This document shows positions 12,501-27,309 of a stretch of 64,000 nt of DNA, in pieces. The DNA is from Thermodesulfobacteriota bacterium. GTDB lineage: Bacteria; Desulfobacterota; Anaeroferrophillalia; Anaeroferrophillales; Tharpellaceae. The translations under genes were made by a program, and so were the position numbers. The notes under the pieces were generated by a model that ran no database searches, was not told the DNA's origin, and saw only the letters and a program-made list of their open reading frames with translations. The number at the start of each line of letters is the position of its first letter. The first letter of the stretch is position 1. Location of the stretch: the NCBI GenBank assembly GCA_024763535.1, contig JANTFH010000001.1, positions 7,337 to 71,336 of the forward strand. Direction: 5' to 3'.

Positions 12501-14255
12501 ACCGACTCCGGGTCCCCGACTACTAAAGTATGCAAGGTAATCGGGAGGGAAATCTGTCGGGTGGGATCGGTAATCCATTTCCAGCCGGGAAGCCGAACCG
12601 TAAGTATCGCACCAATCACGCAGGGCTTCGCCGTCACTGTGCTTGATGAATATTGAAGGGATGCTGATTTCGTCGGCATGGAATGAGGGGCCCATGGTCA
12701 TCAGGTTGTCGCCGCCCTCTGCGTGGTTGTGGTTGTAGATCACCACCAGGACGGCACCGGCTTTTTGGGCCATAAAGACCTTATCACAGAAATCACAGTC
12801 GCCGCGTTCGATCAGTACAGCTTTGTTTGCGAATGGGGTTCCCACCCAGGGGGAACAACCTTCGAAGTTATCAGCTTCAATCCCGGCGGCGGAAATCAGT
12901 TCGTAGGTTGTTACTCCAACCGGCAAGTACGGGCCGAAATCCGCCTCTTGGTAATCAATGTTGGTTAGAGCCTCGTCGGTTGCCCCCGGAGCATTCACTT
13001 TGAAGGGTGGTAAAGTCAGAATCGAAGATTTGCTGGAGGCCGCTACGTTGATGTAGTCGGCCGAAGGATGATCCATGGTTCCCAGGCCGGGACCGGAATT
13101 GCCATTTGCAGCAACAACAAAAATTCCGGATTTGGCGGCATTGATCAGGGTGCGATCGAGCAGGTCATAATAACCCCCTGAGGAATCAGGGGCACCTCCC
13201 ACTGAAAAATTGAGAACATCCGCCCCGTCGGCAACGATATCCTCCAGGGCGGCCAGGCCTTCGGTGGTGTTAACACCTCCCGAACCGCTCTGATGAGGGT
13301 AGAAGACACGGTAGCTCATCAGCCAGGCTGCCGGTGCGACCCCGCTGATTTTTGTTTGGAAGCCGAGATAGGCGGCGGTTACCGGGTTACCGGCGGCAAT
13401 ACCGGCGACGTGAACTCCGTGTGAAATACCGTGTTCACCGGGCCATACATTTGTATCGCCTTCAAGGGGCGGATCATCGGGGTTGAAATAGGCCCGGGAA
13501 ACGATGATTTTACCATTGTTATTGCGGGGGTCGCCCAGGCCCGGAGCCGGGATGTCCGGAGGAAAGTTGAACCCGGTGCCGCTGAACATCGGCGCCTGAT
13601 GATGGATACCGGCGTCCATGATGGCAATTTTAATGCCGCGTCCGGCGTCGGCAGCCGAGTGTATGGCGGGATTGTCCCAGAGAGCCTGAACGTTGATCAG
13701 GTTGCAGCTGGGATAGAGAGTCGGGTAATAAATTTTTTCCGGGTAAACCGCTTTTACTTCCGGCAAATTTCTAAGATTCTGCAAAAGGGTATTTCGATCC
13801 GAGTTCCCGGGATCAAGCGATACTCCATTGAAAAGTAGTTTGTAACGGTTTTCATGTAATCTACCCTGATAATCCAGACGGCGGGAAACCTGGACTCCGG
13901 GGCTTATTGTCTCTAATTTTCGAACAAAACTGTTCTGTTCCTGTTCAAGTCGCCGCAGATATTGTCTGGCGGCCCGATTGCCCGGGGACAGCCGCCGGCC
14001 GCCGGGAGAGCCGTATTTTTTCGGTGATTCGGCAAATCTACAAGCCAATGGTTCATTTTGAAGTTCAACAATCAGCCGACCGGATCTTTTCAGTTCAGGA
14101 TCAAGGGTGCCGGTTGAATTTCTTACTGCAGGGACAGTACCGGCTGCCGCCAGAGCGGTGCCGGCTATAATCATTGGGGCCGCTAGAGAGCTGAGGATGA
14201 GAATGAGAATTGCGGCTGCAGTTTTCCCTGTTCCTGTTATTATCCGGTTCTTCAC
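9588..14255 (-). CDS. Large secreted subtilisin-like serine protease (peptidase S8). Carries a signal peptide, pro-domain, PA-like insert, PKD-like domain and four C-terminal tandem ~100-aa repeats.
   Basis: 1555 aa. N-terminal signal peptide with a hydrophobic stretch. Asp/His/Ser catalytic motifs are IAIMDAGI, HGVHVAGIAAG and GTSMATPHVAGAAALI. A PKD-like segment reads WDFGDGSS...YLVRVEATDNYGN. The repeats carry the motif [YF]PH[IV]A(S/T)xDxW(W/F)TG. Confidence 0.9.
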   Translation of the reverse strand: MKNRIITGTGKTAAAILILILSSLAAPMIIAGTALAAAGTVPAVRNSTGTLDPELKRSGRLIVELQNEPLACRFAESPKKYGSPGGRRLSPGNRAARQYLRRLEQEQNSFVRKLETISPGVQVSRRLDYQGRLHENRYKLLFNGVSLDPGNSDRNTLLQNLRNLPEVKAVYPEKIYYPTLYPSCNLINVQALWDNPAIHSAADAGRGIKIAIMDAGIHHQAPMFSGTGFNFPPDIPAPGLGDPRNNNGKIIVSRAYFNPDDPPLEGDTNVWPGEHGISHGVHVAGIAAGNPVTAAYLGFQTKISGVAPAAWLMSYRVFYPHQSGSGGVNTTEGLAALEDIVADGADVLNFSVGGAPDSSGGYYDLLDRTLINAAKSGIFVVAANGNSGPGLGTMDHPSADYINVAASSKSSILTLPPFKVNAPGATDEALTNIDYQEADFGPYLPVGVTTYELISAAGIEADNFEGCSPWVGTPFANKAVLIERGDCDFCDKVFMAQKAGAVLVVIYNHNHAEGGDNLMTMGPSFHADEISIPSIFIKHSDGEALRDWCDTYGSASRLEMDYRSHPTDFPPDYLAYFSSRGPGVGEVLKPDITAPGVRILSQGYDPYAAGENRHLGFGIASGTSMATPHVAGAAALILQVHPDWPNSYIKSAIMTTSRFKGIKVDNDLPALPLEIGAGRLDLTRVIDPGIICQPPSVSFGRVAKGKNKSLTVTVTNISPNPETYTVSIFNPRAADGHEKSMEGVSFSPAQLTLKPKTSTTLTLTIDTTNDRVNSGDLQGFIVLSGKAHNAHLPFWARIVRPSSGEILLVDNDGSSADQEKKDYRKYYTEALDKLGKSYDVWDVDAQPADNLIPEAAKLARYPAMVYFSGDNWNPMDNLYTDRLTEYANGGGHIIAMGQNISNIFSEGDAFEGEKFFWDNILNGLVWQHGLTDGKLPEHDIVAFADAPSAFKNIHLDLSDSGDGAGNQFFIDEMCTYEDADLRRLHLPALLCYPDKNNNQYGIVAQANRFQPSLGIPEPPSAIRAIYASFGLEGINDQAHRTSRSKLLGIFLNWMADEPTAAIVERNNSTVTEKSFQALLDSPVINSWGSYYRWDFGDGSSPQGPFSDSACSHTYARPGNYLVRVEATDNYGNQAIGKYLVSKPDCLYYPHIATVDNWETEICVINLSADSTITGTFKAYADDGTPVSEIDDVVLPPRGRREITVGTTFSDPDRIGYIIFTASGDTLAGYTKFYVAGNYRVAIPAVRELNQKDIFVSHIASDDNWFTGLSLVNVTASARTLFIETDNGMKQTLELNPGEHKALSLRSLFAGQPQTGIQSAVIRNCAGIIGLELFGSGKQLSGILLQDDSATEIIYPHVASTDEWWTGVVAYNCATATSHLNFTTFNTEGKILTSNVSLDLTGHDKFIGSVAALDFPEATAWFRIKSSQPMTGFELFGTSNGLELGGYSSVNLSAPRGVFPKLEKDGFTGIAMVNATSLKASRVTLTAYDNDGHMVGKPQTISLDGYEKVVKVAEKLFSSDISRATYITYRSDRKLVGFQLNGTTDGVLLDGLPALR

Positions 14256-14724
14256 GATCGCTCTCCAGTTGTAAAAAAAATTAAGCTGAAATCTTCACTT
14301 AAATTTAAGTCAGAGCAAAGGGGGGATCCAACAACTAAAATCCATATCATTTAATACTGGACAAAAGCAATCTTTTAATGTTATATAGCGGTTCAGTTCA
14401 ACGATATAGTTGAATAGAGTAAGGGTTGTGATGGGGATGTTCTCCATAGATCAACCTTTTACTTTGAGGAAGATTAAAATAGCAAAGCGGTTGTTTTCGG
14501 CAACGGAGGCAAGCGCTTTTTTGTTTTTTGGGTCGGTTTTTTCCGATGGTCGATTTAGAACCTTAATCAATCAGGTTCATCTGCAAGATAGATTTACTAC
14601 AACACTATAATTTAAGCCCGTATCCGGAAAGATCGGAACTTTTTAATTTATAAGGTTTGCCGAAAAGCTAAATTTCGCCAGCCTTTTAAGAAAATGTCCG
14701 GCCGGGCTATTGAGAGATTTAGAT

Positions 14725-16017
14725 ATGTCATTTGAAAAATTGGGCCTGGTGCCCAGACTGCTTGAAACCGTAGCCGCACAGGGCTACACCATTCCCACCC
14801 CGATTCAGGCGCAGGCGATTCCCGTGATTCTGGAAGGCCGTGATGTTCTGGGCGGGGCCCAGACGGGAACCGGAAAAACCGCTGCCTTTGCCCTGCCGGT
14901 ATTGCAGAAACTGGATGCGGCCGGTCGTAAAGGTAAACATCCGCGCTGCCTGGTGCTGACGCCGACCCGTGAGCTTGCGGCGCAGGTGGGTGAGTCGATG
15001 GCGGTTTACGGAAAGAAAATGTCGTTGCGTTCGACGATTGTCTTCGGTGGTGTCGGCATTAACCCGCAGATTGATAAATTACGGCGCGGGATTGATATCC
15101 TGGTCGCCACCCCCGGCCGGCTACTGGACCATTGCGGTCAGAAAACCGTTGATCTTTCTCATGTCGAGATTTTGATTCTGGATGAGGCCGACCGGATGCT
15201 GGATATGGGTTTTATCCACGATATCAAGCGGGTGCTCAAATTGCTGCCGCAGAAACGTCAGAATCTGCTCTTTTCCGCGACCTATTCCAATGATATCCGG
15301 GGACTGGCTGACAACCTGTTGCGGGATCCGGTTATGGTTGAAGTCGCACCGCGGAACACCGCGGCCGAAAAGGTTGATCAGGTGGTGTATCCGGTGGCCT
15401 TAAAAGAGAAAAAAGTGCTGCTGGCGAAATTGATTAATGATGGTGACTGGCAGAAAGCTTTGGTTTTCACCCGCACTAAACACGGTGCCAATCGGCTCGC
15501 GACCTATCTGGAAAAAGGTGGTATCGGGGCGGCGGCGATTCACGGCAACAAGAGTCAGACCGCCCGAACCCGGGCTCTGGCTGAGTTTAAGCAGGGCAAA
15601 GTCAAAGTTCTGGTGGCGACCGATATTGCCGCCCGGGGTCTTGACATTGCGGCCCTGCCGCAGGTTGTCAATTTTGATTTGCCGAATGTGGCTGAAGATT
15701 ATGTCCATCGCATCGGCCGGACCGGCCGGGCCGGCAGTTCCGGTATGGCGATTTCACTGGTGAGTGCCGATGAGCAGAAACTCCTGCGGCCGATCGAGAG
15801 ACTGTTGGGGCGGGATATTCTCGTCGAAAATATCGACGGTTTTGCCCAGAATGAGGCCGATAAGGACGAAGAGACTTTCGTTAATTTCAACCGCCGCGGC
15901 AAAGGGCCGGGCCGGGGGCGTTACTCTAAACCGCGTCAATCCGGTGGCAGACCCGGCGGTAATTCCCGAAATTCCAGCCACTCGCGCGCCAGATCCGGCG
16001 GGGCCGGTAATCGTTAG
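14725..16017 (+). CDS. rhlE: ATP-dependent DEAD-box RNA helicase (RhlE-like) with an Arg/Gly-rich C-terminal tail
   Basis: Q-motif FEKLGL...GYTIPTPIQ, Walker [13 protein letters not shown] box ([13 protein letters not shown]), [13 protein letters not shown], and a C-terminal RGKGPGRGR...GGRPGGNSR tail. Start set at ATG 14725 (MSFEKLGL). Confidence 0.9.
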
Positions 16018-17151: not shown

Positions 17152-20100
17152 TCAACTCTTTTCCATGATAAAACATGGCGTCTGGCTGGATGAGGGGGGA
17201 CTTAACGGACACCTGGAGGCGATGCAGGTCGGGTTTATGCCCATCTGTTTACAGTTAAGTTCAGTATCGGCCTTGAGGCCTGTCGGCAGCATGGTCTGGG
17301 AGAGCTCCGCCGCCTTTTTCAAGGCCAGCCAGGAATCACGCTGGCAGCAGCGGGCGGCATCGAGTTCGGCAATATCAGCCAGACACATCTGGGTGGCCGT
17401 TTGAATCTTTTGGCGGGCGGAAGCCGCCATCGGGGTTGATTTAAGAATCAGGCCGAAAGCAATACCTACGCCCAAAGCGGCACCGCAGGCACCAAAAAAA
17501 CCGCAGAATCCGCCGGGTATCTGCGAGCCCCGGGAGATTCCGTTTTTTACGGTTTCACTGCTGATTCCACCACCAATATTTTTATAAGTTGCGAGAATAA
17601 TTCCCGGTACCAGAGCATGGTGCTCGGGGCCGTGCACCGGAATGCGCGGATGATTGCGTATCTGCCGCAACAGGGCAATCATGTCGGTTTCAGTGGTTGT
17701 CGTACACAGGTGCTCAATGACCTGCAGGGCATCCCGGGCATGACACTCATCACAGACGAAATGCCCATTTTCACAGAGAGCGTTGGTTTTTAAGCTCTGA
17801 TGACAAAAAGCGCAGCTTTTTTCCACCTCTGTCTGTTGATAGACCAGCGGGGCACCGCAAACCATACAGTCAACGCTTTTCCTGACATTACCATCATTTT
17901 TATCCTGAGTATCTACGGCCTTTGCTTTTGCCTCCGGCGGTGAAGCACAGCAGGAGTCGCCGAGCTCAATATTGCTGACAAAACCATGACCGTCCAAGAG
18001 AAAAATTTCTTCACCGCAGCCCTTTAAGCGGCTGTCCGGCAGCGTGTAAGTTGTGCCCGGCGTCAGCACTTGCCGGTCGGCCGTCAGCACCGCGGCAAAG
18101 GGGCCCCGGTAGATCATTTTGATCATCTTGCCGGGCCCCGGTTTCCAGGCGGCAAAGGTCAGGGAATAGAAGGGGTGGCCAGCTACCGTACGGTAGGGAT
18201 ATCTTTTAATGATTCTCGGATTTATAAAACCTGATTCACTCAGCAGAGCCATAAGGTTTTTCTGAGTCAAGGCTCCGGCAATACATTCGCCCCGCAGAAT
18301 TTCATCACTGCGGATGGCGGGATCGGGTTCGTCCTCGCAGACCACATCCGCGACTACGAGTCGGCCCCCGGGCCGTAATACACGCAGGATTTCAGCAAAA
18401 GTCCGCCTTTTGTTGGTGGATAAATTGAGAACGCAGTTGGAGATGATTACATCAGCTCCGTGATCGTCCAGCGGCAGATCTTCAAGCAGGCCTTTTTTGA
18501 ACCTCAAATTGTCATAACCGAGGTTCTTGCGGATGGAGATAGCTCCCTGTCGGGCCAGTTCCAGCATGGGATCAAGCATGTCGATGCCGGTTACCCGGCC
18601 GGAGTCGCCGACCAGGCGGGCCCCGATAAAACACTCCACTCCGCTGCCGCTGCCGAGATCAACCAGGCTTTCTCCGGTCTGCAACTCGGCGTCCAGAATC
18701 GGGCTTCCGCAGCCGTAACTGCGTACCCGGGAGGCGGTTGGAATATGGCTCAGCAGTTCAGCGGGATAATTCACCGGATTAAGGATATCGAGGTTGGGCT
18801 TTAAGGCGGCGCTGCCGTAAAATTTTCTGATAACGGTTCGGCTGTCATTCCGACTTAAAGAGAGCAGGCAGTTATTGTGAACCAGAGTCTCCCGGCCATG
18901 GGCGCCGCAGCTCTCCAGGATATCCCCCATTTTCAGGCGCAGTCCCGGCAGCTTACGCTCGGGCCGGGCCGGTAGATTACTGGTAATTTGCCATAAGGCG
19001 ATATCTTCGTAGAGGGGCCAGTAGGGGTCGTGGCCGCTGAATTCTCCGGAATGGATATAGCTGTGGTCGGGGTCACCGCCGCCGAGGATGAAGCGCAGCG
19101 GGTGGCTGATGGCCATGGCGTTGGCCCGGCGCAGGTGCTTAAACACCGGGTCGGAACGCCAGGTGGTGCCGAGGTCGGAGTTAATTTCCGCCCCCAGTCC
19201 TTTCATGCCGATCAGGGCCGGAGAGGGATAAAGTTTATGATCCGGTCCGATGGCAATCGATTCCCAACCGCTGGAGCCGGCCCAGTGAATGGTTCCCGGG
19301 GGCGCGAACACCTGGGTTTGCATGGTCTCAAGGTTATCGATACCGACTCCCAGCTGAGCCCCTTTTGCGGCCGCCTCCTGCAGTTTAGTGAAAATCTTCT
19401 GCGGCAGAACGAAGGCCTCCGCCGAGCCCCGGCCCCGGATAAAATACCACATAAAGTGGACCGTTGCGGCGCCAACCTCAGAAGCCAGTTCGATAATCTC
19501 CGGCATTTGCTGCACATTGCTCTCGGTGACACACATGGAAAGGGTGAAAGGCATGTTCTGCTGCCGCAGGAGATGAAATTCATGTCCCAATTTTTTGAAT
19601 GATCCTGCTCCCCGTAAATGGTCGTGTTCCTTTTCCAGGCCATCGATGCTGATCTGCAGATGTAAGTTATCTTTCGGCCAGGACTTAAGCTCCTTTGTAA
19701 AATTATGCCAGAGCATGCCGTTGGTCAGCACTGCCACGTGCCGCTCCGGGTCAGCCAGCAGATGGTCGATGATTGCGGCAAACTGCGGGTGCACCAGGGG
19801 CTCACCGCCGGTCAGGGCGAAGACGCGGCAGCCTAAGTTTGCGGCCTGATCTGTCAGTGAGATAATCTCCGCCAGTGACAGACTCTCCTTTTCTCCGGGG
19901 GAGCAGGCAAAGAGACAATGTCTGCAGGCCTGATTACAGTCATTGGTGATGTGCAGCCAGCACTCTTTAAGCTCCCGGGTTGACAGGGTTTCGGGCCGTC
20001 CGCTCAGCTTCGTCTCTGCGTAGGCCGGCAGGCGCTGTAAAAACAGTTGCTGTTGTAAATCACCAGGATACGCACCTCCGGCAGCCAGGTCGCTGAGCAG

Positions 20101-20244
20101 CTGGTCTCCGGCACGGTTGGGGATAAACCAGTCCGGATGGTCGCGGTTGACATAGACGGGGATGGTATTAAACTCAATCCGGCTCCATTGATGCGGGTCG
20201 TAAACTAACTTACAGTTTTCAGACGGGGGGCTGTTTTTCAGCAT
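17152..20244 (-). CDS. Three-module fusion protein: ArsS-like radical SAM domain + ArsM-like (arsenite methyltransferase-type) class I SAM methyltransferase + Cys-rich C-terminal module. Start probably at the second ATG (20244), which has an AAGGA SD; the ORF track's 20295 ATG has none.
   Basis: CX3CX2C radical-SAM motif in ITNDCNQACRHC, followed by a GGEP-like segment (ALTGGEPLV). MTase motifs YGCGSPILDAELQTGESLVDLGSGSGVECF and VIISNCVLNLS with RVLRPGGRLVVADVV, which line up with the ArsM family. C-terminal ~290 aa with CMVCG...CAFC...CENGHFVCDEC and GGFCGFFGACGAALG. Confidence 0.8.
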   Translation of the reverse strand: MLKNSPPSENCKLVYDPHQWSRIEFNTIPVYVNRDHPDWFIPNRAGDQLLSDLAAGGAYPGDLQQQLFLQRLPAYAETKLSGRPETLSTRELKECWLHITNDCNQACRHCLFACSPGEKESLSLAEIISLTDQAANLGCRVFALTGGEPLVHPQFAAIIDHLLADPERHVAVLTNGMLWHNFTKELKSWPKDNLHLQISIDGLEKEHDHLRGAGSFKKLGHEFHLLRQQNMPFTLSMCVTESNVQQMPEIIELASEVGAATVHFMWYFIRGRGSAEAFVLPQKIFTKLQEAAAKGAQLGVGIDNLETMQTQVFAPPGTIHWAGSSGWESIAIGPDHKLYPSPALIGMKGLGAEINSDLGTTWRSDPVFKHLRRANAMAISHPLRFILGGGDPDHSYIHSGEFSGHDPYWPLYEDIALWQITSNLPARPERKLPGLRLKMGDILESCGAHGRETLVHNNCLLSLSRNDSRTVIRKFYGSAALKPNLDILNPVNYPAELLSHIPTASRVRSYGCGSPILDAELQTGESLVDLGSGSGVECFIGARLVGDSGRVTGIDMLDPMLELARQGAISIRKNLGYDNLRFKKGLLEDLPLDDHGADVIISNCVLNLSTNKRRTFAEILRVLRPGGRLVVADVVCEDEPDPAIRSDEILRGECIAGALTQKNLMALLSESGFINPRIIKRYPYRTVAGHPFYSLTFAAWKPGPGKMIKMIYRGPFAAVLTADRQVLTPGTTYTLPDSRLKGCGEEIFLLDGHGFVSNIELGDSCCASPPEAKAKAVDTQDKNDGNVRKSVDCMVCGAPLVYQQTEVEKSCAFCHQSLKTNALCENGHFVCDECHARDALQVIEHLCTTTTETDMIALLRQIRNHPRIPVHGPEHHALVPGIILATYKNIGGGISSETVKNGISRGSQIPGGFCGFFGACGAALGVGIAFGLILKSTPMAASARQKIQTATQMCLADIAELDAARCCQRDSWLALKKAAELSQTMLPTGLKADTELNCKQMGINPTCIASRCPLSPPSSSQTPCFIMEKS

Positions 20245-20366
20245 CGGGAATGTCCTTTTTCGGTGCAACCGATCTTCGCAGGGCGAAATTTGCATAAATA
20301 TGATTGTTATGGTAGAGTATTGCCTGTCTTGTTATGATGTTTTTAGGTTGGATGTCAAGAGGTATT

Positions 20367-21080
20367 ATGAAGCGGGCTTCAAGCGGGAAAATTATTCTCC
20401 TGATCGCGATCATTCTGCTGCTGGTTGTTTTCAGGGCATTTGAGCTCAATCAGTACCTGACTCTTGACTATCTTAAAGCTTCCCGATCTCATTTCATCAG
20501 CCTCTATACTCTTCATCCTTTTGCCGTGATTGCCGTTTATACGGCCGGATATATTCTGGTTACGGCCCTCTCTTTACCCGGCGCCACGGTTTTAACCCTG
20601 GCCGGAGGGGCCCTGTTCGGTCTGGTCAAGGGTACCGTAATCATCTCTTTTGCCAGCACTATCGGAGCAACCCTGGCCTGTCTGGTCTCCCGCTATCTGC
20701 TTCGTGACTGGGTTCAGGACCGTTTTCGCGATACCCTGGCCGCGATTAATCAGGGGATGGCCCGGGAGGGCGGTTTCTACCTTTTCAGCCTGCGTCTGGT
20801 GCCGATTTTTCCCTTTTTCATGATCAATCTGGTGATGGGGCTTTCCCGGATGCGGCTGACCCAATTTTACTGGATATCCCAGCTCGGTATGCTGCCCGGA
20901 ACCCTGGTTTATGTCAATGCCGGCCGGGAACTGGGGAAGCTTGATAGTCTTTCCGGAATTCTTTCACCGGGATTGATCGGCTCTTTTGTGATTTTGGGAA
21001 TTTTCCCTTTCTTGGTTAAAAAACTTGTCGCCTGCTGGCGGCGGAGACGCTCTTTAGTGCCGCCTCCCGAGCACCATTAA
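20367..21080 (+). CDS. DedA/TVP38/TMEM64-family integral membrane protein
   Basis: Multi-pass membrane protein with the conserved DedA core (GxxxV..ALSLPGATVLTLAGGALFG). Start placed at ATG 20367 after an AGAGG SD. Confidence 0.75.
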   Translation: MKRASSGKIILLIAIILLLVVFRAFELNQYLTLDYLKASRSHFISLYTLHPFAVIAVYTAGYILVTALSLPGATVLTLAGGALFGLVKGTVIISFASTIGATLACLVSRYLLRDWVQDRFRDTLAAINQGMAREGGFYLFSLRLVPIFPFFMINLVMGLSRMRLTQFYWISQLGMLPGTLVYVNAGRELGKLDSLSGILSPGLIGSFVILGIFPFLVKKLVACWRRRRSLVPPPEHH

Positions 21081-21113
21081 CTTTAACGCATCTGTAATTT
21101 AAGGAGATTCGTA

Positions 21114-22571
21114 ATGGCAAACTATGATTATGATATGGGTATCATCGGCGGCGGGGCGGCCGGGCTTACGATTGCCTCGGGAGCGGCCCAGCTGGGGGCC
21201 AAAACCCTGTTGATAGAAAAGGAGGACAGGCTTGGCGGTGACTGCCTCCATTATGGCTGTGTTCCCAGTAAAACCCTGATTAAGAGTGCCCGGGTCTATC
21301 AGCAGATGAAAAATGCTCATGTTTTCGGCCTGCCGGACATAACTCCCGGCCCGGTTGACTTTAGCCGGGTGCGAGAAAGGATAGAGTCGGTTATCTCCGG
21401 GATCCAGAAACACGATTCCGAGGATCGTTTCTGCCGGTTGGGTGTCAAGGTTGAGTTCGGCCAGCCGGAATTTGTGGATGAATATCAGGTGCGTTTACCG
21501 GGTCAGACGGTGTCGGCGGCAAAATGGGTGATTGCCAGCGGCTCTTCTCCGGCGCCGCCGCCTTATGCCGGGCTGGAGAAAATCAACTATCTTACCAATA
21601 AGGAGTTGTTTTCACTTGAAAGCCTGCCGTCCTCCATGATTATTCTGGGAGCCGGCCCCATCGCCATGGAGATGGCCCAGGCCTTCAACAGCCTGGGCAC
21701 CCGGGTTGAGGTTATTCAGAGAAGCGGTCAGATTCTCAGCAAGGAAGATCAGGATATGGCCGATATGGTTATGCATAACCTGCAGCAGGAGGGGGTGATA
21801 ATACACCTGCACGCCTCGGTCATGGCAATTGAAGATGCCGGTAACCGTCGACCGCGGATAACGATCAGCACAAAAGGGGATGAAACACCGGTGCAGCTGG
21901 AAGCCGAGACTCTGCTGGTGGCTATGGGCCGTCGGGCCAATCTGGAAGGTTTGGGTCTGGAAAATATCGGGGTCGATTTCAGCCCTAAAGGTCTCACGGT
22001 TGATAAACGGCTGCGGACTCGGCATAAACATATTTACGCCGCCGGTGATGTCACCGGTACCTACCAGTTTACCCATGCGGCCGGATATGAAGGCGGGATT
22101 GTTTTAAGCAATGCGATTTTTCATCTGCCGAGAAAGGTTGATTACAGCACCATGCCCTGGTGTACCTATACTCACCCCGAGCTGGCCAGTATCGGTATGA
22201 ATGTCAAGGCAGCCCGGGCTGCCGGAATAGAGTATTCCGAGTGGAGCGAAAATTTTCAAAATAATGACCGGAGTCTGGCAGAAGGCAACCAGAGCGGCCT
22301 GATCAAGATGCTGCTTGATGCCGGCGGTAAGCCTTTGGGGGTGCAGATTGCCGGCCCCCAGGCGGGCGAATTGCTCAATGAGTGGGTGGCGGTAATGAAC
22401 GGCGGGGTGAAATTGACGAGCCTGGCGTCGGCGATTCATCCCTATCCGACGCTGGGAGAGATCAACAAGCGCGTGGCGGGAAAACCACTGGCGCAAAAAC
22501 TGTTCTCGCCGAAAATGAAAAAAGGGTTGAAATTTTTCTTCGGGTTTAAGGGCCGGGCCTGCGATGTTTAG
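21114..22571 (+). CDS. Class I pyridine nucleotide-disulfide oxidoreductase (dihydrolipoamide-dehydrogenase / mercuric-reductase-like FAD flavoprotein)
   Basis: FAD GxGxxG (GIIGGGAAG), redox-active disulfide GGDCLHYGCVPSK, NAD(P) GxGxxA motif (IILGAGPIAMEMA), C-terminal dimerisation HPYPTLGE. Confidence 0.85.
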   Translation: MANYDYDMGIIGGGAAGLTIASGAAQLGAKTLLIEKEDRLGGDCLHYGCVPSKTLIKSARVYQQMKNAHVFGLPDITPGPVDFSRVRERIESVISGIQKHDSEDRFCRLGVKVEFGQPEFVDEYQVRLPGQTVSAAKWVIASGSSPAPPPYAGLEKINYLTNKELFSLESLPSSMIILGAGPIAMEMAQAFNSLGTRVEVIQRSGQILSKEDQDMADMVMHNLQQEGVIIHLHASVMAIEDAGNRRPRITISTKGDETPVQLEAETLLVAMGRRANLEGLGLENIGVDFSPKGLTVDKRLRTRHKHIYAAGDVTGTYQFTHAAGYEGGIVLSNAIFHLPRKVDYSTMPWCTYTHPELASIGMNVKAARAAGIEYSEWSENFQNNDRSLAEGNQSGLIKMLLDAGGKPLGVQIAGPQAGELLNEWVAVMNGGVKLTSLASAIHPYPTLGEINKRVAGKPLAQKLFSPKMKKGLKFFFGFKGRACDV

Positions 22572-23283
22572 AAAACTATGTCTTGTTATTGTCCTGCTTA
22601 TTCTCATCTCGGCTTATGCCGCCGCCTCCGGTAGCGGCCGTAATTTTTTTCTGAATGAGCAGTTTGCATCGTTGGCTGACTGGAAGCCCTTCTATTTTCC
22701 TGAAATTAAAGAGCACAGCCGCTATGCTGTCATCCGGGAAAATGGTGCAAGCTGGTTGCAGACTTCAAGCTTAGCTTCGGCCTCCGCCATCGTTTATCAG
22801 CAAAGTTTTGATGTCTACCGCTTTTCGCACCTTAAATGGCGCTGGCGGGTTGACAATATCTATAAAAAGGGTAATGCTGAGAAAAAGTCCGGAGATGATT
22901 ATCCGATCAGGATTTATGTTATGTTTGAGTATAATCCTCAGTCGGCCGGTTTTTTCGAGAAGATAAAATACAACACCGCCCGGCTCTTATACGGCTCCTA
23001 TCCGCCCCACTCCTCGCTGAACTATATCTGGGCCAATCGTAAACAGCCGCAAAGAATAATGGACAATCCCTATACTGACCGAACCCGGATGATCATTATG
23101 GAAGCGGGGCGTAAAAATCTTGGAAAATGGCGGGAATATGAGGTTGATATCCTCAATGATTACCGTCAGGCTTTCGGTGAAGAACCGCCCGCCCGGGCCC
23201 GGATTGCGATCATGAACGATTCGGATAATACCGGCGAGGCCGGCAAATCCCAGGTTGATTATATTCAGGTTTATGGAGAATAG
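22564..23283 (+). CDS. Secreted DUF3047-like protein
   Basis: Signal peptide MFRKLCLVIVLLILISAYAAASG. ~230-aa domain containing WRWRVDNIYKKGNAEKKSGDDYPIRIYVMF. It partners with the two transferases downstream, the arrangement I know for DUF3047. Confidence 0.55.
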   Translation: MFRKLCLVIVLLILISAYAAASGSGRNFFLNEQFASLADWKPFYFPEIKEHSRYAVIRENGASWLQTSSLASASAIVYQQSFDVYRFSHLKWRWRVDNIYKKGNAEKKSGDDYPIRIYVMFEYNPQSAGFFEKIKYNTARLLYGSYPPHSSLNYIWANRKQPQRIMDNPYTDRTRMIIMEAGRKNLGKWREYEVDILNDYRQAFGEEPPARARIAIMNDSDNTGEAGKSQVDYIQVYGE

Positions 23284-23287
23284 AACG

Positions 23288-23932
23288 ATGCCCGTCGCCC
23301 GGGCCCTTATCATTATGACCCGCTACCCGGAGCCCGGCCGGGTCAAGACCCGTCTGATTCCGGCCCTGGGTGCAAACGGTGCCGCCCGTCTGCATCGGCA
23401 GATGGTTGAATATACGCTGGCAACCGTTAAGAATTTAAGCTCCGTTACCGCTGCCGGGATCTTTATCTTTTTTCAGGGCGGCAGCAGAGAGCTGATGGCT
23501 GAATGGCTGGGAGACGGGGTCGAATATCTGCCCCAGGTTGAGGGTGATCTTGGGGATAAAATGAGGGCGGCCCTGCAAACGGTTTTTAACCGGGGCTTTG
23601 AAGAGGTGATTATGATCGGCAGCGACTGTCCGGCAATCGATGCTGAAATTTTAGCGCAGGCTTTTTCCGGATTATCCCGGGCCGGGATGGTTATCGGCCC
23701 GGCCGCCGACGGCGGTTATTATCTGCTGGGCTTAAAACAGGTTTACGAGCCGCTCTTTGAAAAGATCGACTGGGGTAGCGGGGTCGTGCTGAGACAGACC
23801 CTTTCTGCCGCCCGCAAAGTTGGTCTCAGGGTGCAGAGCCTTTCCGAACTGAGAGATATTGACCGGCCTGAAGATCTTAAGCAGCTGCAAGCTCTGGCCG
23901 CTTTCTCCTCCTGGAGTGATATTTCGGCATGA
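23288..23932 (+). CDS. DUF2064 / TIGR04282-like nucleotide-diphospho-sugar transferase (the 'rSAM/selenodomain-associated transferase 1' type)
   Basis: N-terminus MPVARALIIMTRYPEPGRVKTRLIPALGANGAARLHRQM matches the DUF2064 signature (PxPGxVKTRL). Start placed at ATG 23288 with a GGAGA SD. Confidence 0.7.
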   Translation: MPVARALIIMTRYPEPGRVKTRLIPALGANGAARLHRQMVEYTLATVKNLSSVTAAGIFIFFQGGSRELMAEWLGDGVEYLPQVEGDLGDKMRAALQTVFNRGFEEVIMIGSDCPAIDAEILAQAFSGLSRAGMVIGPAADGGYYLLGLKQVYEPLFEKIDWGSGVVLRQTLSAARKVGLRVQSLSELRDIDRPEDLKQLQALAAFSSWSDISA

Positions 23933-24639
23933 GGCGTAGATCGCAAGAGCTTATCTCAATTATTATTCCGACCCTTAATGAAGAGTCATCCCTTCCGGCC
24001 GCTGTCAGTCGGGCGCGGTCGGGCGCAGAGATTGAAATAGTTGTGGCCGACGGCGGCAGTTCAGACCGGACCTTAGAACTGGCTGAGGAGCTGCGGGTAA
24101 AGGTTGTCTCCTCAAAGCCCGGTCGCGCGGTGCAGATGAATGCCGGGGCCCGGGAATCACGGGGTGATATCCTGCTCTTTCTGCATGCGGACACCCTGCT
24201 GCCGAGGGGTTACGATAAATGTGTCCGCCGGATATCCGGGGATCGGTCGGTTGCGATTGGCGCCTTTCGGCTGGGTATTAGGGACCCGGGAATAGCTTTA
24301 CGGATTATCGAGCTCGGGGCTAATCTCAGGTCAAAATACGGCCATCTTCCTTATGGTGATCAGGCGCTGTTTATGAGCCGGCGGCGGTTTGATGAATTAG
24401 GCGGATTTCCTGAAATCTCACTGATGGAAGATTTTGCTCTGGTTCAGCAGCTGAAGCGGCGGGGCCGGGTTGTTCTGGCTCCCCTTGCCGTATACACCTC
24501 GGCCCGGCGGTGGCGTGATCTGGGAATCTTAAGAACTACCGTCTTGAATCAACTGATTGTCGGAGCCTATATGATGGGGGTATCGCCCGTCCGGCTTGCG
24601 GCCTGGTACCGGCGGAGGAAAAACCGAGATGCAGAATGA
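23929..24639 (+). CDS. Family 2 glycosyltransferase (TIGR04283-like, the 'rSAM/selenodomain-associated transferase 2' type)
   Basis: ISIIIPTLNEESSLP...IEIVVADGGSSDRT GT-A fold N-terminus with a DxD-type motif. ATGA overlap with the upstream gene. Confidence 0.75.
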   Translation: MRRRSQELISIIIPTLNEESSLPAAVSRARSGAEIEIVVADGGSSDRTLELAEELRVKVVSSKPGRAVQMNAGARESRGDILLFLHADTLLPRGYDKCVRRISGDRSVAIGAFRLGIRDPGIALRIIELGANLRSKYGHLPYGDQALFMSRRRFDELGGFPEISLMEDFALVQQLKRRGRVVLAPLAVYTSARRWRDLGILRTTVLNQLIVGAYMMGVSPVRLAAWYRRRKNRDAE

Positions 24640-25468
24640 AGCAAAAATACGCCTGATCTCTTTTGTCGTGATATTCCTGGCGGTGGCTCTGGCGGAAATT
24701 ATCTTTCCCCGGCGCCGGTTGACGGATGCCAAAGGCCGGCGCTGGCGGCATAATCTGGGATTGATTTTTCTCGACAATTTGGTGGTCTGGCTGCTGCTCT
24801 CCGGTGCGACGATTGCCGTAGCGGTGGCGGCTGAACGGGCTCAGTGGGGACTGTTTAACCTTTATCATGTGCCTGAATTTCCGGCGATAATTCTCGGTGT
24901 TCTGGCTCTGGACTTAATTATCTACCTGCAGCATCTGATGTTTCATGCGGTGCCGCGATTATGGCGTCTGCATATGGTTCATCACACGGATTTGGATATT
25001 GACGTCTCCACCGGGCTGCGCTTTCATCCGCTGGAAATAATAATTTCCGTCTGGATCAAGCTGGCTGCAATTGTGGCTTTGGGAGTGCCGGCTGCCGGAG
25101 TGCTGCTTTTTGAGGTAGTGCTCAACGGCACCGCGCTGTTTAATCACGGAAATCTTCGGCTGCCTGAAGATAGCGATCGTTTTCTCAGGAAATTTCTCGT
25201 AACCCCGGATATGCACCGGGTGCATCATTCGGTGATTATCCGGGAGACCAACTCCAATTTCGGTTTTAATCTGTCCTGGTGGGATCGACTGTTCGGTACC
25301 TACCGGCCGCAGCCGGCCGCCGGTCATGAAGGGATGAGTATCGGCCTTGCGCCCTATCGGGAGGCCCGGGAGTTAACTTTTCTAACGCTTTTGCGGCTGC
25401 CCTTTTCCGGGGATCCCGGGAGATACTCCCTGGATCATAGCGGTCGCGAACCGTCGCTTAAGAAATGA
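24629..25468 (+). CDS. Fatty acid hydroxylase / sterol desaturase superfamily integral membrane protein
   Basis: His-box motifs HMVHHTDLDIDVSTGLRFHPLE, HRVHH and NFGFNLSWWDRLFGT are typical of the FA_hydroxylase family. Start placed at ATG 24629 (MQNEAKIRL). Confidence 0.8.
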   Translation: MQNEAKIRLISFVVIFLAVALAEIIFPRRRLTDAKGRRWRHNLGLIFLDNLVVWLLLSGATIAVAVAAERAQWGLFNLYHVPEFPAIILGVLALDLIIYLQHLMFHAVPRLWRLHMVHHTDLDIDVSTGLRFHPLEIIISVWIKLAAIVALGVPAAGVLLFEVVLNGTALFNHGNLRLPEDSDRFLRKFLVTPDMHRVHHSVIIRETNSNFGFNLSWWDRLFGTYRPQPAAGHEGMSIGLAPYREARELTFLTLLRLPFSGDPGRYSLDHSGREPSLKK

Positions 25469-25524: not shown

Positions 25525-27309
25525 CTACGCTTTATCCTTTTTACGTTTGCTCTTGCTACGGATCGGATGGGGTCTGGAGGGTCGGTTCGGGCGTTTTGAG
25601 CGGTCCGGGCGGGGCGTCATTTTTTCTTTGCTGTCAGCAATTTTGGCTCGGACTTTACGGCCGTTGATCATCAGGCTGGAGAAGGTGTTGATAATCTCTT
25701 TGGCGTAGCGGGTATCGGCCTCAATCAGGCTGCAGTTGGTTTGGATTTCGATGCGGCCGACATGGATGCGCGGGCCGCCGACACTGGCGTCGTTAATCTC
25801 GCCGATCAGCCGGCCCGGGTTGATGCCGTCCCGTTTGCCGACATTGACGTGGAAGCGGGTGAAGCGTTCCCGGTCACTGCCGCGGTCATTGGTATCACGG
25901 TTTTTATAGGTTTTGGATCTGCCGTCCCGCCGTTCGTAATCCCGGCTGCTGCCGGATTCCCGCCGGCCTTTGCCTACGGAGTCATTCTCATTCAGATCCG
26001 GGGCGTTGCGATAATAGCTTAAGAGTTGAGCAAATTCGGAGATGACAAAACGTTTGACCAGTTCTTCCCGTTCCAGCGGAGCGAGACTCTCCATAATCGC
26101 CGGCAGAAACGGTTCAATCTGGCGGCTGTCGATGGCGGTCATTTTCAGTTCATCCAGATAGTGCAGCATCCGTTGCCGGCAAATCTCCTGGCCGGTCGGG
26201 ATGCGGCCCGGTTCAAATTTCCTCTTGAGCCGTCTCTCAATCTGTTTAATCTTGTATTTTTCGCGCAGGTGGGCAATTGCAATCGAGATGCCCTCCTTGC
26301 CGGCCCGGCCGGTGCGGCCGCTGCGATGGGTGTAGGCGGCGACATCATCGGGCAGGTTGTAATTTATGACATGAGTTAAGTTTTTAACGTCAAGGCCGCG
26401 GGCGGCAACGTCGGTGGCCACCAGCAGTTTAATATTACGGCGCCGGAATTTCTGCATGACATGATCACGCTGAGCCTGAGCCAGTTCGCCATGCAGAGCA
26501 TCGGCATTGTAGCCGTCGTCAATCAGTTTGGCGGCGATATCGCGGGTCTCCTGGCGGGTACGGCAGAAGATAATGGCATAGATATCGGGGTTGCTGTCGG
26601 CAATGCGTTTCAGGGTCGGGTAGCGGTTTTTGGCGGCCACCATATAGTAAGTATGGCGGACATTTTCAATGCCCTGGTTGCGTTCGCCGATGGTAACTTC
26701 AATCGGATCCTTCATGTAGCTGTTGGCGATGGCGGTAACTTCCCGGGGCATCGTGGCCGAGAAAAGGACGGTTTTTTTACTCTCCGGGGTCGCTGCCAGA
26801 ATCTCGTTGAGATCGTCCTGAAAACCCATCTGCAGCATTTCGTCAGCTTCATCAAGAATGACGGCCCGGATGTTTTTGATATTAACATCGCCCTGCTGGA
26901 TAAAAGCTAAAAGCCTCCCCGGAGTGGCAACAATTATCTGGGCTCCGGCTTTAAGCTGCCGGCTTTGGCCGATGATACTGGCACCGCCGTAGACGGCGAC
27001 AATTCTGATTTTAGGGAGAAATCGGGAGAAGGCGGCAAGATCCTTGTGGACCTGGACGCAGAGTTCCCGGGTCGGACAGAGGATTAAGGCTTGAGTCTGC
27101 ATGTTGCTTTGATCCAGCATCTGGATCAGAGGCAGTCCGAAGGCCGCGGTTTTGCCGGTGCCGGTCTGGGAGAGTGCTACCAGATCGTCTTCAAGTTTGT
27201 TCAGGCGCGGGATTACCTCAGCCTGGACCGGAGTCGGGGTTTTGAAGCCGAGTTTGTTGATGCCTTCGAGAAGTTCTGAACTTAAGCCTAAATCGGCAAA
27301 CGTGGTCAT
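25525..27309 (-). CDS. deaD: Cold-shock DEAD-box RNA helicase DeaD/CsdA-like, with a DbpA-type RNA-binding domain and a basic C-terminal tail
   Basis: 594 aa: FADLGL...TPTPVQ, SQTGTGKT, LDEADEMLQMGF, SAT, HRSGRTGRAG, then a C-terminal DbpA-like domain and a KRPNRPSRPHPIRSKSKRKK tail. Confidence 0.9.
   Translation of the reverse strand: MTTFADLGLSSELLEGINKLGFKTPTPVQAEVIPRLNKLEDDLVALSQTGTGKTAAFGLPLIQMLDQSNMQTQALILCPTRELCVQVHKDLAAFSRFLPKIRIVAVYGGASIIGQSRQLKAGAQIIVATPGRLLAFIQQGDVNIKNIRAVILDEADEMLQMGFQDDLNEILAATPESKKTVLFSATMPREVTAIANSYMKDPIEVTIGERNQGIENVRHTYYMVAAKNRYPTLKRIADSNPDIYAIIFCRTRQETRDIAAKLIDDGYNADALHGELAQAQRDHVMQKFRRRNIKLLVATDVAARGLDVKNLTHVINYNLPDDVAAYTHRSGRTGRAGKEGISIAIAHLREKYKIKQIERRLKRKFEPGRIPTGQEICRQRMLHYLDELKMTAIDSRQIEPFLPAIMESLAPLEREELVKRFVISEFAQLLSYYRNAPDLNENDSVGKGRRESGSSRDYERRDGRSKTYKNRDTNDRGSDRERFTRFHVNVGKRDGINPGRLIGEINDASVGGPRIHVGRIEIQTNCSLIEADTRYAKEIINTFSSLMINGRKVRAKIADSKEKMTPRPDRSKRPNRPSRPHPIRSKSKRKKDKA

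What the first reader, a model, noticed from the sequence alone, without database searches (positions are those of the whole stretch)
17152..18020. Uncharacterised ~290-aa Cys-rich C-terminal module appended to the rSAM-methyltransferase fusion
After the methyltransferase domain the ORF continues with CCASPP, a zinc-ribbon-like CMVCGAPLV...CAFCHQ...CENGHFVCDECH cluster, a Gly-rich hydrophobic segment GGFCGFFGACGAALGVGIAFG, and terminal CC and C...C...C residues. ArsM enzymes bind As(III) through conserved cysteines, so additional Cys-rich modules on this fusion may bind or relay arsenic, metal or disulfide. The Gly/Cys segment loosely resembles putative redox-active C_GCAxxG_C_C-type proteins; I am not certain of this. 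Seen in sequence; function is inference.
Basis: inference. Interest (0 to 1): 0.55.

Follow-up and report, generated by a model that had tools for sequence, protein, structure and literature searches.

The report
Conserved cysteine-rich DUF5714 tail on arsenic enzyme
The cysteine-rich tail is real but belongs to a catalogued family of unknown function (a double zinc ribbon plus Pfam domain DUF5714), and it is a conserved, flexibly tethered third part of a radical-SAM/arsenite-methyltransferase enzyme that sits next to arsenosugar-pathway genes in many anaerobic bacteria.

Summary

The tail is not unclassified. It breaks down as follows:
- the end of the ArsM C-domain, with a CC pair (C782-C783)
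- a ~20-residue disordered linker
- a double zinc ribbon (eight Cys/His ligands)
- a full-length DUF5714 domain (PF18978, E=4e-58)

The Cys/His pattern is 83-100% conserved across family representatives clustered at 50% identity. In 75 of 80 species-level loci the same three-part protein (radical SAM, then ArsM-like methyltransferase, then DUF5714) is one ORF, so the tail is integral and was not appended.

In the window the gene faces a divergent cassette with both arsenosugar glycosyltransferases (TIGR04282, TIGR04283), DUF3047, a VTT membrane protein and a flavoprotein disulfide reductase.

No solved structure resembles the domain. A remote link to C_GCAxxG_C_C proteins is supported (44 of 87 members give weak hits).

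Function is untested. My preferred reading is a thiol-based arsenic/redox relay serving the two catalytic domains. An Fe-S electron-transfer role is a close rival.

An "ArsSM fusion protein" was published in 2024; I know it by title only. Interest is moderate.

The parts
17152..20295 (-). Whole ORF, 1047 aa: radical SAM, then ArsM-like methyltransferase, then zinc ribbon, then DUF5714. The true start may be M18 at 20244.
   Evidence: A 100%-identical public protein, P0121, is called at 1030 aa. Residues 1-27 have pLDDT<50.
19483..19950 (-). Radical SAM core (residues 116-271) with the CxxxCxxC motif C120/C124/C127. The post-core region 291-480 has no SPASM/twitch cysteines.
   Evidence: PF04055 E=3e-19. 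No curated NCBIfam family reaches its cut-off. The closest solved relative is SkfB, E=7e-20. The three Cys are invariant. Residues 290-490 gave no NCBIfam hit.
17944..18795 (-). ArsM-type As(III) SAM-methyltransferase domain plus its C-terminal domain (residues 501-784). The YGC529G, SNC621V and GEC671 cysteines are conserved.
   Evidence: NF008823 E=1e-59, and NF040538 aligned up to residue 784. The best PDB hits are arsenite methyltransferases 5evj and 4fr0, E~1e-36, with all three Cys motifs aligned. The three Cys are invariant in A4.
17947..17952 (-). Vicinal cysteine pair C782-C783 (SCCASPP) at the junction of the ArsM C-domain and the flexible linker.
   Evidence: C783 is conserved in >=90% of full-length homologues. 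The model becomes disordered from residue 783.
17875..17943 (-). Variable, disordered linker (residues 785-807).
   Evidence: Mean identity 18% against 50-61% for the domains. pLDDT<50 at 783-802.
17731..17874 (-). Double zinc-ribbon / treble-clef-like module (residues 808-855). Putative site 1 is C810, C813, C828, C831. Putative site 2 is C841, H845, C848, C851.
   Evidence: The ligands are 98-100% conserved. The model shows two beta-hairpins at 817-828 and 834-841. Pfam zinc-ribbon and RING hits are all sub-threshold, and PDB HypA and RING hits have E~0.1. Metal binding is inferred.
17203..17718 (-). DUF5714 all-alpha domain (residues 860-1031).
17617..17634 (-). HGPEHH motif (residues 888-893).
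   Evidence: H888 86%, H892 83%, H893 97%, G889 96%, P890 93% conserved.
17470..17505 (-). CGFFGACGAALG (C931...C937-GAxxG), at helix N-termini. This is the stretch shared with C_GCAxxG_C_C proteins.
   Evidence: C931 99% and C937 96% conserved. The PF09719 alignment covers tail residues 166-228. 44 of 87 members hit PF09719.
17338..17352 (-). RCCQR motif (R982-C983-C984-Q985-R986), just before the last long helix.
   Evidence: C983 and C984 98%, R982 95%, R986 94% conserved. It resembles in form the As(III)-binding RCCLKC motif of ArsL.
17209..17253 (-). C-terminal loop C1015-x8-C1024-x4-C1029-P.
   Evidence: 97-100% conserved. The model shows no regular secondary structure here.
20334..21080 (+). 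Divergent neighbour: VTT/DedA-family membrane protein.
   Evidence: PF09335 E=9e-24. The same family neighbours the fusion gene in 19-24 of 80 loci and in L007 and L008.
21114..22571 (+). FAD-dependent pyridine-nucleotide disulfide oxidoreductase (Lpd/MerA-like, with a CxxxxC motif).
   Evidence: NF004991 E=5e-135, below its cut-off. A homologue is adjacent in 9 of 80 loci, at a median distance of 69 bp.
22564..23283 (+). DUF3047 protein.
   Evidence: PF11249 E=4e-71. Present in 6 of 80 loci.
23255..23932 (+). TIGR04282-family arsenosugar biosynthesis glycosyltransferase (DUF2064).
   Evidence: 224.7 bits against a cut-off of 134. Present in 15 of 80 loci.
23929..24639 (+). TIGR04283-family arsenosugar biosynthesis glycosyltransferase (GT2).
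   Evidence: 257.5 bits against a cut-off of 182. Present in 12-15 of 80 loci.
24596..25468 (+). Fatty-acid-hydroxylase-family membrane protein (OlsE-like), the last gene of the divergent cassette.
   Evidence: PF04116 E=9e-27. Present in 3 of 80 loci.

Best explanation
Identity (well supported): the tail is an independently folding two-part module. A double zinc ribbon is followed by the all-alpha DUF5714 domain, which carries 7 invariant Cys, an HGPEHH motif and several invariant Arg. A ~20-residue disordered linker tethers the module to an ArsM-type arsenite methyltransferase, which is itself fused to a radical-SAM domain. The whole protein is the radical-SAM/methyltransferase component of an arsenosugar-type organoarsenical gene cluster in strict anaerobes.

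Mechanism (inferred): the module is a thiolate-based arsenic and redox relay. Its reactive cysteines are the Arg-flanked vicinal pair C983-C984, C931/C937 at helix N-termini, and the C1015/C1024/C1029 loop. I propose that they bind trivalent arsenic species and exchange thiols or disulfides with the As-binding cysteines of ArsM. This would keep arsenic reduced and protein-bound while As(III) is methylated, and while the toxic DMAs(III) intermediate is passed to the radical-SAM site for As-C bond formation. The neighbouring NAD(P)H disulfide reductase is a plausible source of reducing equivalents. The zinc ribbon is a structural or docking element.
For: Identity:
- PF18978 match at E=4e-58.
- Confident models, with the only internal disorder at 783-802.
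- The tail is as conserved as the catalytic domains, while the linker is not.
- The same architecture is one ORF in 75 of 80 species loci across Thermodesulfobacteriota, Planctomycetota, Sulfurospirillum, Nitrospiraceae and Clostridia.

Arsenic context:
- The methyltransferase aligns best to solved ArsM structures and keeps all three As(III)-binding Cys.
- The divergent cassette in the window contains TIGR04282 and TIGR04283 arsenosugar glycosyltransferases above their curated cut-offs, plus DUF3047, a VTT protein and a disulfide reductase.
- The same genes recur beside the fusion in 29 of 80 loci.

Soft-metal(loid) link independent of this protein:
- DUF5714 is also fused to ArsM alone.
- It is fused to an arsenate-reductase-like LMWP domain that sits directly upstream of an HMA chaperone and a P-type ATPase.
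- It forms the N-terminal half of NCBI's 'metal-binding double selenoprotein MbdU' model.

Precedent:
- The R-C-C motif parallels ArsL's C-terminal RCCLKC. That motif does not bind an auxiliary cluster and is proposed to bind As(III).
- ArsS uses DMAs(III) as its substrate, so a fused enzyme needs an internal hand-off.
Against: - No binding or activity was tested, and I could not inspect model coordinates to see whether the cysteines cluster.
- Seven invariant Cys plus three His are more than As(III) needs (three thiolates), which suggests a metal cluster.
- DUF5714 is also fused to radical SAM enzymes with no known arsenic link: TrsS and a SPASM maturase-like protein.
- Of five genuinely standalone genes examined, only one lies next to an ArsM-like gene.
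- The remote relatives (C_GCAxxG_C_C) are annotated as putatively redox-active, not metal-carrying.
Confidence: 0.4

Rival explanations
1. Fe-S electron-transfer module. DUF5714 binds an iron-sulfur cluster through its helix-N-terminal and C-terminal-loop cysteines. It would act as a built-in ferredoxin-like donor that reduces the radical-SAM [4Fe-4S] cluster (and perhaps ArsM's catalytic disulfide) without touching arsenic itself.
For: - Remote homology to the 'putative redox-active' C_GCAxxG_C_C family, with a shared CGAxxG motif.
- There are seven invariant Cys.
- DUF5714 is fused C-terminally to at least three different radical SAM families.
- The rSAM domain here has lost all SPASM/twitch cysteines.
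- The family is confined to anaerobes.
- Other ArsM proteins carry redox accessory domains such as AhpD.
Against: - No Fe-S family profile is matched.
- The ArsS-type adenosylation is redox-neutral after priming.
- An ArsC-like fusion beside HMA and a P-type ATPase points to metal handling.
- In ArsL a similar RCC motif was shown not to bind a cluster.
Confidence: 0.3
2. Separate catalytic domain. DUF5714 would be an enzyme performing another step of the pathway, for example reducing pentavalent methylarsenicals to the trivalent substrates, using the HGPEHH, Arg and Cys constellation as an active site.
For: - The domain has many invariant polar residues: H888/H892/H893, E891, R922, R961, R982, R986, N906, N1021 and Q1017. 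That looks more like an active site than a carrier.
- It is fused to an arsenate-reductase-like domain in P0319.
- Standalone forms are common.
Against: There is no similarity to any characterised enzyme by sequence or fold. Fusion partners are diverse.
Confidence: 0.12
3. Structural or regulatory module. The zinc ribbon plus helical domain would mediate oligomerisation, partner docking or metal(loid) sensing that gates activity, with no role in chemistry.
For: - Zinc ribbons often mediate interactions.
- The module sits on a flexible tether.
- The family occurs fused to a solute-binding-protein/kinase and to a PLP enzyme.
Against: Near-invariance of seven non-zinc-ribbon cysteines at <50% overall identity is unusual for a purely structural role. 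The existence of a selenoprotein relative, MbdU, implies reactive chalcogen chemistry.
Confidence: 0.1

Closest known systems
Pfam PF18978 (DUF5714)
   Same: Full-length match (profile 1-172 of 173, E=4e-58). The conserved Cys/His pattern is the same. Close homologues are already labelled 'DUF5714 domain-containing protein' by NCBI.
   Different: Nothing differs structurally; it is a member. The family has no assigned function, and none of the 8 million searchable papers mentions it.
'ArsSM fusion protein' of a paddy-soil sulfate reducer (Yang et al. 2024, Environ Sci Technol 58:19266; known here by title only)
   Same: A radical-SAM (ArsS-type role) and ArsM joined in one polypeptide in a sulfate-reducing bacterium.
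   Different: The paper is not held, so I could not check whether that protein belongs to this family or carries the DUF5714 tail, or whether the tail was discussed.
Two-protein arsenosugar route: ArsM plus ArsS (TIGR04167 radical SAM with a Cys/Sec-rich DUF3641 C-domain), with TIGR04282 and TIGR04283 transferases
   Same: The same cassette partners (TIGR04282, TIGR04283, DUF3047, VTT, disulfide reductase) flank the gene. There is an ArsM-type methyltransferase plus a radical SAM enzyme. Both radical SAM enzymes carry a Cys-rich C-terminal accessory region. (ArsS's domain make-up is from TIGRFAM/NCBIfam descriptions, i.e. my own knowledge. Its reaction is.)
   Different: The radical SAM domain here is a SkfB/SPASM-like core without auxiliary-cluster cysteines. 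TIGR04167 is not among the listed best matches, and the post-core region gave no match at all. The Cys-rich accessory domain is DUF5714 rather than DUF3641, and it follows ArsM rather than the radical SAM core.
C_GCAxxG_C_C family (PF09719 / TIGR01909, 'putative redox-active protein')
   Same: The CGAxxG motif lies at a helix N-terminus, followed by further conserved Cys. 44 of 87 DUF5714 proteins hit the model, best E=1.3e-5.
   Different: This tail scores 14.6 bits against a cut-off of 27. DUF5714 adds a zinc ribbon, HGPEHH, a vicinal CC and a three-Cys C-terminal loop. The function of PF09719 is itself unknown.
NCBIfam NF045648, metal-binding double selenoprotein MbdU (Haft & Tolstoy 2025; paper not held)
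   Same: The zinc ribbon plus DUF5714 aligns to profile positions ~35-270. The curators infer metal binding. A 'CU' motif is listed and may correspond to C983-C984; I could not verify this.
   Different: The score is 134 bits against a cut-off of 600. This protein has no selenocysteine and lacks MbdU's C-terminal ~200 residues.
ArsL C-terminal RCCLKC motif (arsinothricin biosynthesis)
   Same: An Arg-Cys-Cys motif lies near the C-terminus of an enzyme that forms an As-C bond by radical SAM chemistry. Removing it did not change Fe/S content, and it is proposed to bind As(III).
   Different: It is a six-residue motif, not a 230-residue domain, and there is no homology. The resemblance is functional analogy only.
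ArsM fusions with other accessory domains (NF041537 ArsM/AhpD; NF041536 ArsM/DUF2284)
   Same: An ArsM-type methyltransferase is followed by a Cys/Sec-bearing redox or metal-binding domain.
   Different: The accessory folds are different, and there is no radical SAM domain.

Membership tests
DUF5714 (PF18978) | Score above Pfam's gathering threshold over the whole model | tested here: met
   196-200 bits against 26.2; profile 1-172 of 173.
DUF5714 (PF18978) | Family-wide conserved Cys/His constellation: HGPEHH, C-x5-CGAxxG, RCC, C-x8-C-x4-CP | tested here: met
   All are present in the window protein and 83-100% conserved in family representatives clustered at 50% identity.
C_GCAxxG_C_C (PF09719 / TIGR01909) | Score above the gathering threshold (27 bits) | tested here: not met
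   14.6 bits, E=0.035. However, 44 of 87 relatives hit at E<=1, best 1.3e-5. This makes it a remote relative, not a member.
C_GCAxxG_C_C (PF09719 / TIGR01909) | CGAxxG motif with flanking conserved cysteines | tested here: met
   C931-x5-C937-GAALG, then C983/C984.
MbdU (NF045648) | Curated cut-off of 600 bits, two selenocysteines, ~468-aa architecture | tested here: not met
   134 bits; only profile positions 4-266 aligned; no in-frame UGA; no C-terminal extension.
Zinc ribbon / treble clef | Two pairs of CxxC-type knuckles on beta-hairpins, giving four ligands per site | tested here: inconclusive
   The C810/C813/C828/C831 and C841/H845/C848/C851 ligands are conserved and beta-hairpins are predicted. 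All Pfam and PDB zinc-finger hits are sub-threshold, and metal content cannot be tested here.
[quoted passage not shown] | Three As(III)-binding cysteines (CmArsM C72, C174, C224 equivalents) in a class I SAM-methyltransferase fold | tested here: met
   YGC529G, SNC621V and GEC671 align to 5evj and are invariant. Whole-protein NF008823 scores 202 bits, below the 263 cut-off.
ArsS (TIGR04167 arsenosugar radical SAM) | Match to TIGR04167, including its Cys/Sec-rich C-terminal domain (DUF3641) | tested here: not met
   It is not among the 25 best NCBIfam hits for the N-terminal 500 aa. The post-core region 290-490 has no hit at E<=10. Pfam reports no DUF3641.
Arsenosugar-type gene cluster | TIGR04282 and TIGR04283 transferases beside a radical SAM enzyme and an ArsM | tested here: met
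   224.7 bits against 134 and 257.5 bits against 182, 3-4.3 kb from the fusion gene. The arrangement recurs in 16 of 80 related loci. The product of the cluster was not tested.
ArsSM fusion (Yang et al. 2024) | Radical SAM and ArsM in one polypeptide that methylates arsenic | not testable with these tools
   The architecture matches by title only. The paper and its sequence are not held.

The most novel reading that the evidence does not exclude
DUF5714 would be a previously unrecognised arsenic-carrier domain, a kind of 'swinging arm' for trivalent methylarsenicals. It would make the three-domain protein a single-polypeptide assembly line in anaerobes: As(III) is captured, methylated twice and adenosylated without releasing toxic DMAs(III). 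The same domain would serve as a general soft-metal(loid) hand-off module for other radical SAM, ArsC-like and selenoprotein partners.
Probability: 0.25. Interest if true: 0.7.

Novelty: new member of a known kind. Interest (0 to 1): 0.42.

Why it matters
Anaerobic arsenic methylation by sulfate reducers drives dimethylarsenic accumulation and straighthead disease in rice (background), and how anaerobes make complex organoarsenicals is barely known.

This gene shows three things:
- A large family of anaerobes carries a radical-SAM/ArsM enzyme wired to arsenosugar-pathway genes. Relatives of the tail were found in more than 570 stretches of species-representative genomes.
- That enzyme always carries a DUF5714 module.
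- DUF5714 is a catalogued domain with about 1,400 sequence clusters and no function, no structure and no literature.

Linking DUF5714 to arsenic or soft-metal chemistry gives the domain its first testable functional hypothesis. It also points to a defined construct (residues ~806-1035) for metal-binding, spectroscopic and deletion experiments.

Tried and rejected
- PDB by sequence, with the single tail and with a family profile: only sub-threshold zinc-finger and ATP-synthase-c noise.
- Model coordinates are not exposed, so Cys-Cys distances and metal-site geometry could not be measured.
- Literature: 'DUF5714' returns 0 papers. The two Haft selenoprotein papers and the ArsSM paper are not held.
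- Profile-profile test against C_GCAxxG_C_C: no member of that family was found in 1.16 Mb of fetched loci to build a profile. I relied instead on the Pfam scan of 87 members.
- Selenocysteine variants: I looked for homologues truncated at the RC|C position and found none among the 384 held proteins. The idea that MbdU's 'CU' motif equals C983-C984 is therefore unverified.
- I first thought the linker CC (782-783) belonged to the MbdU-like unit, because the MbdU alignment began at residue 778. The linker alone gives no NCBIfam hit, so I dropped that.
Only five true standalone contexts were seen.
- One apparent standalone gene (P0111) turned out to be a frameshift-fragmented three-domain gene. 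Standalone counts are therefore upper bounds.
- Considered and rejected: that the tail is a fused neighbouring gene or an assembly artefact, because 75 of 80 loci have one ORF.
Full report
**Observation**

The window holds a 1047-aa ORF on the minus strand at 17152-20295.
- SCCASPP
- the CxxC...CxxC...C-x3-H-x2-C-x2-CH cluster
- GGFCGFFGACGAALGVG
- ARCCQR
- a terminal C-x8-C-x4-C

The given end coordinate is one base out of frame; 18021 starts a codon.

**What the tail is**

Pfam places residues 860-1031 in DUF5714 (PF18978) with a complete, end-to-end match (E=4e-58, 196 bits against a threshold of 26.2). The remaining domains of the protein are:
- a radical SAM core at residues 116-271, with C120/C124/C127
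- an ArsM-like methyltransferase at residues ~501-784

The methyltransferase's best solved relatives are arsenite methyltransferases (5evj, 4fr0; E~1e-36). The three As(III)-binding cysteine motifs YGCG, SNCV and GEC all align.

The arsinothricin-ArsM model aligns up to residue 784. The added module proper has these parts:

| Part | Residues | Notes |
|---|---|---|
| Vicinal CC at the domain edge | 782-783 | C783 conserved in >=90% of homologues |
| Variable linker | 785-807 | 18% mean identity; pLDDT<50 at 783-802 |
| Double zinc-ribbon-like element | 808-855 | eight conserved ligands |
| DUF5714 | 860-1031 | full-length Pfam match |

Supporting calls: 44, 87, 98, 99.

**Conservation**

A whole-library HMMER search with a family profile found 1,427 clusters at 50% identity with E<=1e-3. 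Across those representatives:
- The eight zinc-ribbon ligands and C931, C937, C983, C984, C1015, C1024 and C1029 are 96-100% conserved.
- H888, H892 and H893 are 83-97% conserved.

Standalone homologues only 26-54% identical to one another keep the same pattern. Within full-length homologues the zinc ribbon (53% identity) and DUF5714 (56%) are as conserved as the radical SAM (50%) and methyltransferase (61%) domains.

**Structure**

- AlphaFold2 models the tail confidently (pLDDT 88.5, pTM 0.83).
- It also models the whole protein confidently (pLDDT 89.5, pTM 0.73).
- The tail consists of two beta-hairpins followed by an eight-helix bundle.
- The conserved cysteines lie at helix N-termini (C931, C937, C983/C984) and in a C-terminal loop.
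- Foldseek found nothing at E<=1e-3, and sequence searches of the PDB found nothing.
- Model coordinates are not exposed, so I could not test whether the cysteines converge on one site.

**Relationship to C_GCAxxG_C_C**

This tail hits PF09719 only weakly (E=0.035). When all 87 aligned family members were scanned, PF09719 was the second most frequent family: 44 of 87 members, best E=1.3e-5. The match lies over the CGAxxG...RCC stretch.

**Is the tail "appended"?**

No. All 120 best full-length homologues have the same Radical_SAM + methyltransferase + DUF5714 make-up. In species-representative genomes at least 572 stretches encode a relative. Of the best 80 loci, 75 carry the three domains in a single ORF, and the rest are cut by contig ends or broken.

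The hosts are anaerobes: Desulfobacterales, Desulfobulbales, Desulfuromonadales, Desulfovibrionales, Planctomycetota, Sulfurospirillum, Nitrospiraceae and Clostridia.

The domain also occurs in other arrangements:
- alone, at about 240 aa
- fused to ArsM only
- fused to other radical SAM enzymes: TrsS above its curated cut-off, and a SPASM maturase-like enzyme
- fused to an arsenate-reductase-like LMWP domain
- fused to a PLP enzyme, and to a solute-binding-protein/kinase

One apparent standalone gene was a frameshift-fragmented fusion, so standalone counts are upper bounds.

**Genomic context**

This was the most informative result. Divergently transcribed from the fusion gene is a tightly packed cassette at 20334-25468:

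| Gene | Coordinates | Evidence |
|---|---|---|
| VTT/DedA membrane protein | 20334-21080 | PF09335, E=9e-24 |
| Lpd/MerA-like flavoprotein disulfide reductase | 21114-22571 | NF004991, E=5e-135 (below cut-off) |
| DUF3047 | 22564-23283 | PF11249, E=4e-71 |
| TIGR04282 arsenosugar glycosyltransferase | 23255-23932 | 224.7 bits against cut-off 134 |
| TIGR04283 arsenosugar glycosyltransferase | 23929-24639 | 257.5 bits against cut-off 182 |
| Fatty-acid-hydroxylase-family protein | 24596-25468 | PF04116, E=9e-27 |

Supporting calls: 51, 57, 58.

The same partners recur beside the fusion gene in related loci: VTT in 19-24 of 80, TIGR04282 in 15, TIGR04283 in 12-15, the disulfide reductase in 9, and DUF3047 in 6. 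At least one partner is present in 29 of 80 loci. Sulfurospirillum loci add a methylthioribose-kinase-like gene, and one locus adds a GalT-like gene. No other radical SAM or ArsM gene lies in these cassettes.

In the known pathway ArsM makes DMAs(III), and the radical SAM enzyme ArsS adenosylates it to 5'-deoxy-5'-dimethylarsinoyl-adenosine. The three-domain protein therefore most likely supplies both activities in these anaerobes. Its radical SAM domain is not of the ArsS family: the closest curated and solved relatives are SPASM/twitch enzymes such as SkfB, it has no auxiliary-cluster cysteines, and no family matches the post-core region.

**Literature**

- No searchable paper mentions DUF5714.
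- An "ArsSM fusion protein" from a paddy-soil sulfate reducer was published in 2024. I know it only from reference lists and could not read it. Whether it has this tail is unknown.
- NCBI's model for "metal-binding double selenoprotein MbdU" shares the zinc-ribbon plus DUF5714 region.
- ArsL, the radical SAM enzyme of arsinothricin biosynthesis, has a C-terminal RCCLKC motif. That motif does not hold an Fe-S cluster and is proposed to bind As(III). This is a formal parallel to the RCCQR motif here.

**Mechanism**

Shown:
- the identity, conservation, tethering and arsenic-pathway context of the module

Inferred:
- The module is a thiolate-based arsenic and redox relay.
- Arg-flanked vicinal cysteines and the neighbouring Cys would bind trivalent arsenicals and exchange thiols or disulfides with ArsM's cysteines.
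- This would keep arsenic reduced and protein-bound, and would pass DMAs(III) to the radical SAM site.
- The adjacent NAD(P)H disulfide reductase is a possible electron source.

Independent soft-metal links for DUF5714 support this. It is fused to ArsM alone, and to an ArsC-like domain that sits directly upstream of an HMA chaperone and a P-type ATPase. NCBI's curators also infer metal binding for MbdU.

The main rival is an Fe-S electron-transfer domain. In its favour:
- seven Cys is more than As(III) needs
- the remote relatives are called redox-active
- the weak fold hits include Fe-S proteins
- the domain is fused to radical SAM enzymes with no known arsenic link
- only one of five true standalone genes lies next to an ArsM-like gene

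I put the relay at about 0.4 and the Fe-S donor at about 0.3. A separate catalytic role or a structural/regulatory role is less likely. The two leading readings are not mutually exclusive.

**Verdict**

The tail is a member of a catalogued but uncharacterised family, embedded in an enzyme type that has been named in the literature. What this analysis adds is the link between DUF5714 and an arsenosugar-type cluster, and a defined, testable hypothesis for the domain. Interest is moderate.

Noticed in passing
window 20334-25468 (+): An arsenosugar-type cassette is divergent from the fusion gene. It contains VTT/DedA, an Lpd/MerA-like disulfide reductase, DUF3047, TIGR04282, TIGR04283 and a fatty-acid-hydroxylase-like protein. 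Gene ends overlap by 4-44 bp, which suggests a single operon.
   Followed up: yes
window 18856-20295 (-), residues 1-480: The radical SAM half is not an ArsS (TIGR04167) family member. Its closest solved relative is SkfB, there are no cysteines between residues 290 and 462 (so no SPASM/twitch cluster), and the N-terminal 110 aa and residues 290-490 match no NCBIfam model. Two further invariant cysteines (C463, C476) lie between the radical SAM and ArsM parts and may replace ArsM's fourth N-terminal cysteine.
   Followed up: partly
window 20244-20367: The start codons are ambiguous. The longest ORFs leave only 38 bp between the divergent genes. The public 100%-identical protein starts at M18 (1030 aa) and the VTT homologue at M12, giving a ~120-bp shared promoter region. 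Residues 1-27 are disordered in the model.
   Followed up: partly
L087 3388-4455 (-), L088 3601-4632 (-), L082 3642-4712 (+): In Sulfurospirillum loci a methylthioribose-kinase-like gene (178 bits, below the 275 cut-off) lies in the cluster. In L082 a GalT-like nucleotidyltransferase lies there. Both hint at salvage-like processing of a 5-deoxy-5-arsinoyl-ribose intermediate.
   Followed up: partly
L094 and L095, 7001-10400: A widespread 358-aa protein (P0319) fuses DUF5714 to an arsenate-reductase-like LMWP domain. It sits immediately upstream of an HMA metallochaperone and a P-type ATPase.
   Followed up: partly
L093 4577-7678: A 'standalone' DUF5714 protein (P0111) is really the last fragment of a three-domain gene split into four ORFs, probably by long-read frameshift errors. 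Architecture counts taken from protein databases overstate standalone forms.
   Followed up: yes
P0022 (309-kb contig), P0024 (136-kb contig), L003 6899-7241: Several methyltransferase+DUF5714 proteins on long contigs begin just after an ArsM active-site cysteine motif. This could reflect in-frame UGA (selenocysteine) at that cysteine, as in known ArsM selenoproteins, or mis-called starts.
   Followed up: no
P0256 residues ~383-392: The TrsS-DUF5714 fusion has a GGCCVAPEE motif that resembles the DSCCASPPE at the ArsM/linker junction here. It may be a shared CC(U)-x2-P-E element in different partner enzymes.
   Followed up: no
window 9588-14255 (-): A very large (1555 aa) secreted subtilisin-like protease ORF with C-terminal repeat or PKD-like regions. 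It appears unrelated to the finding.
   Followed up: no
window 14710-16017 (+) and 25525-27309 (-): Two DEAD-box RNA helicase genes flank the arsenic locus on either side.
   Followed up: no
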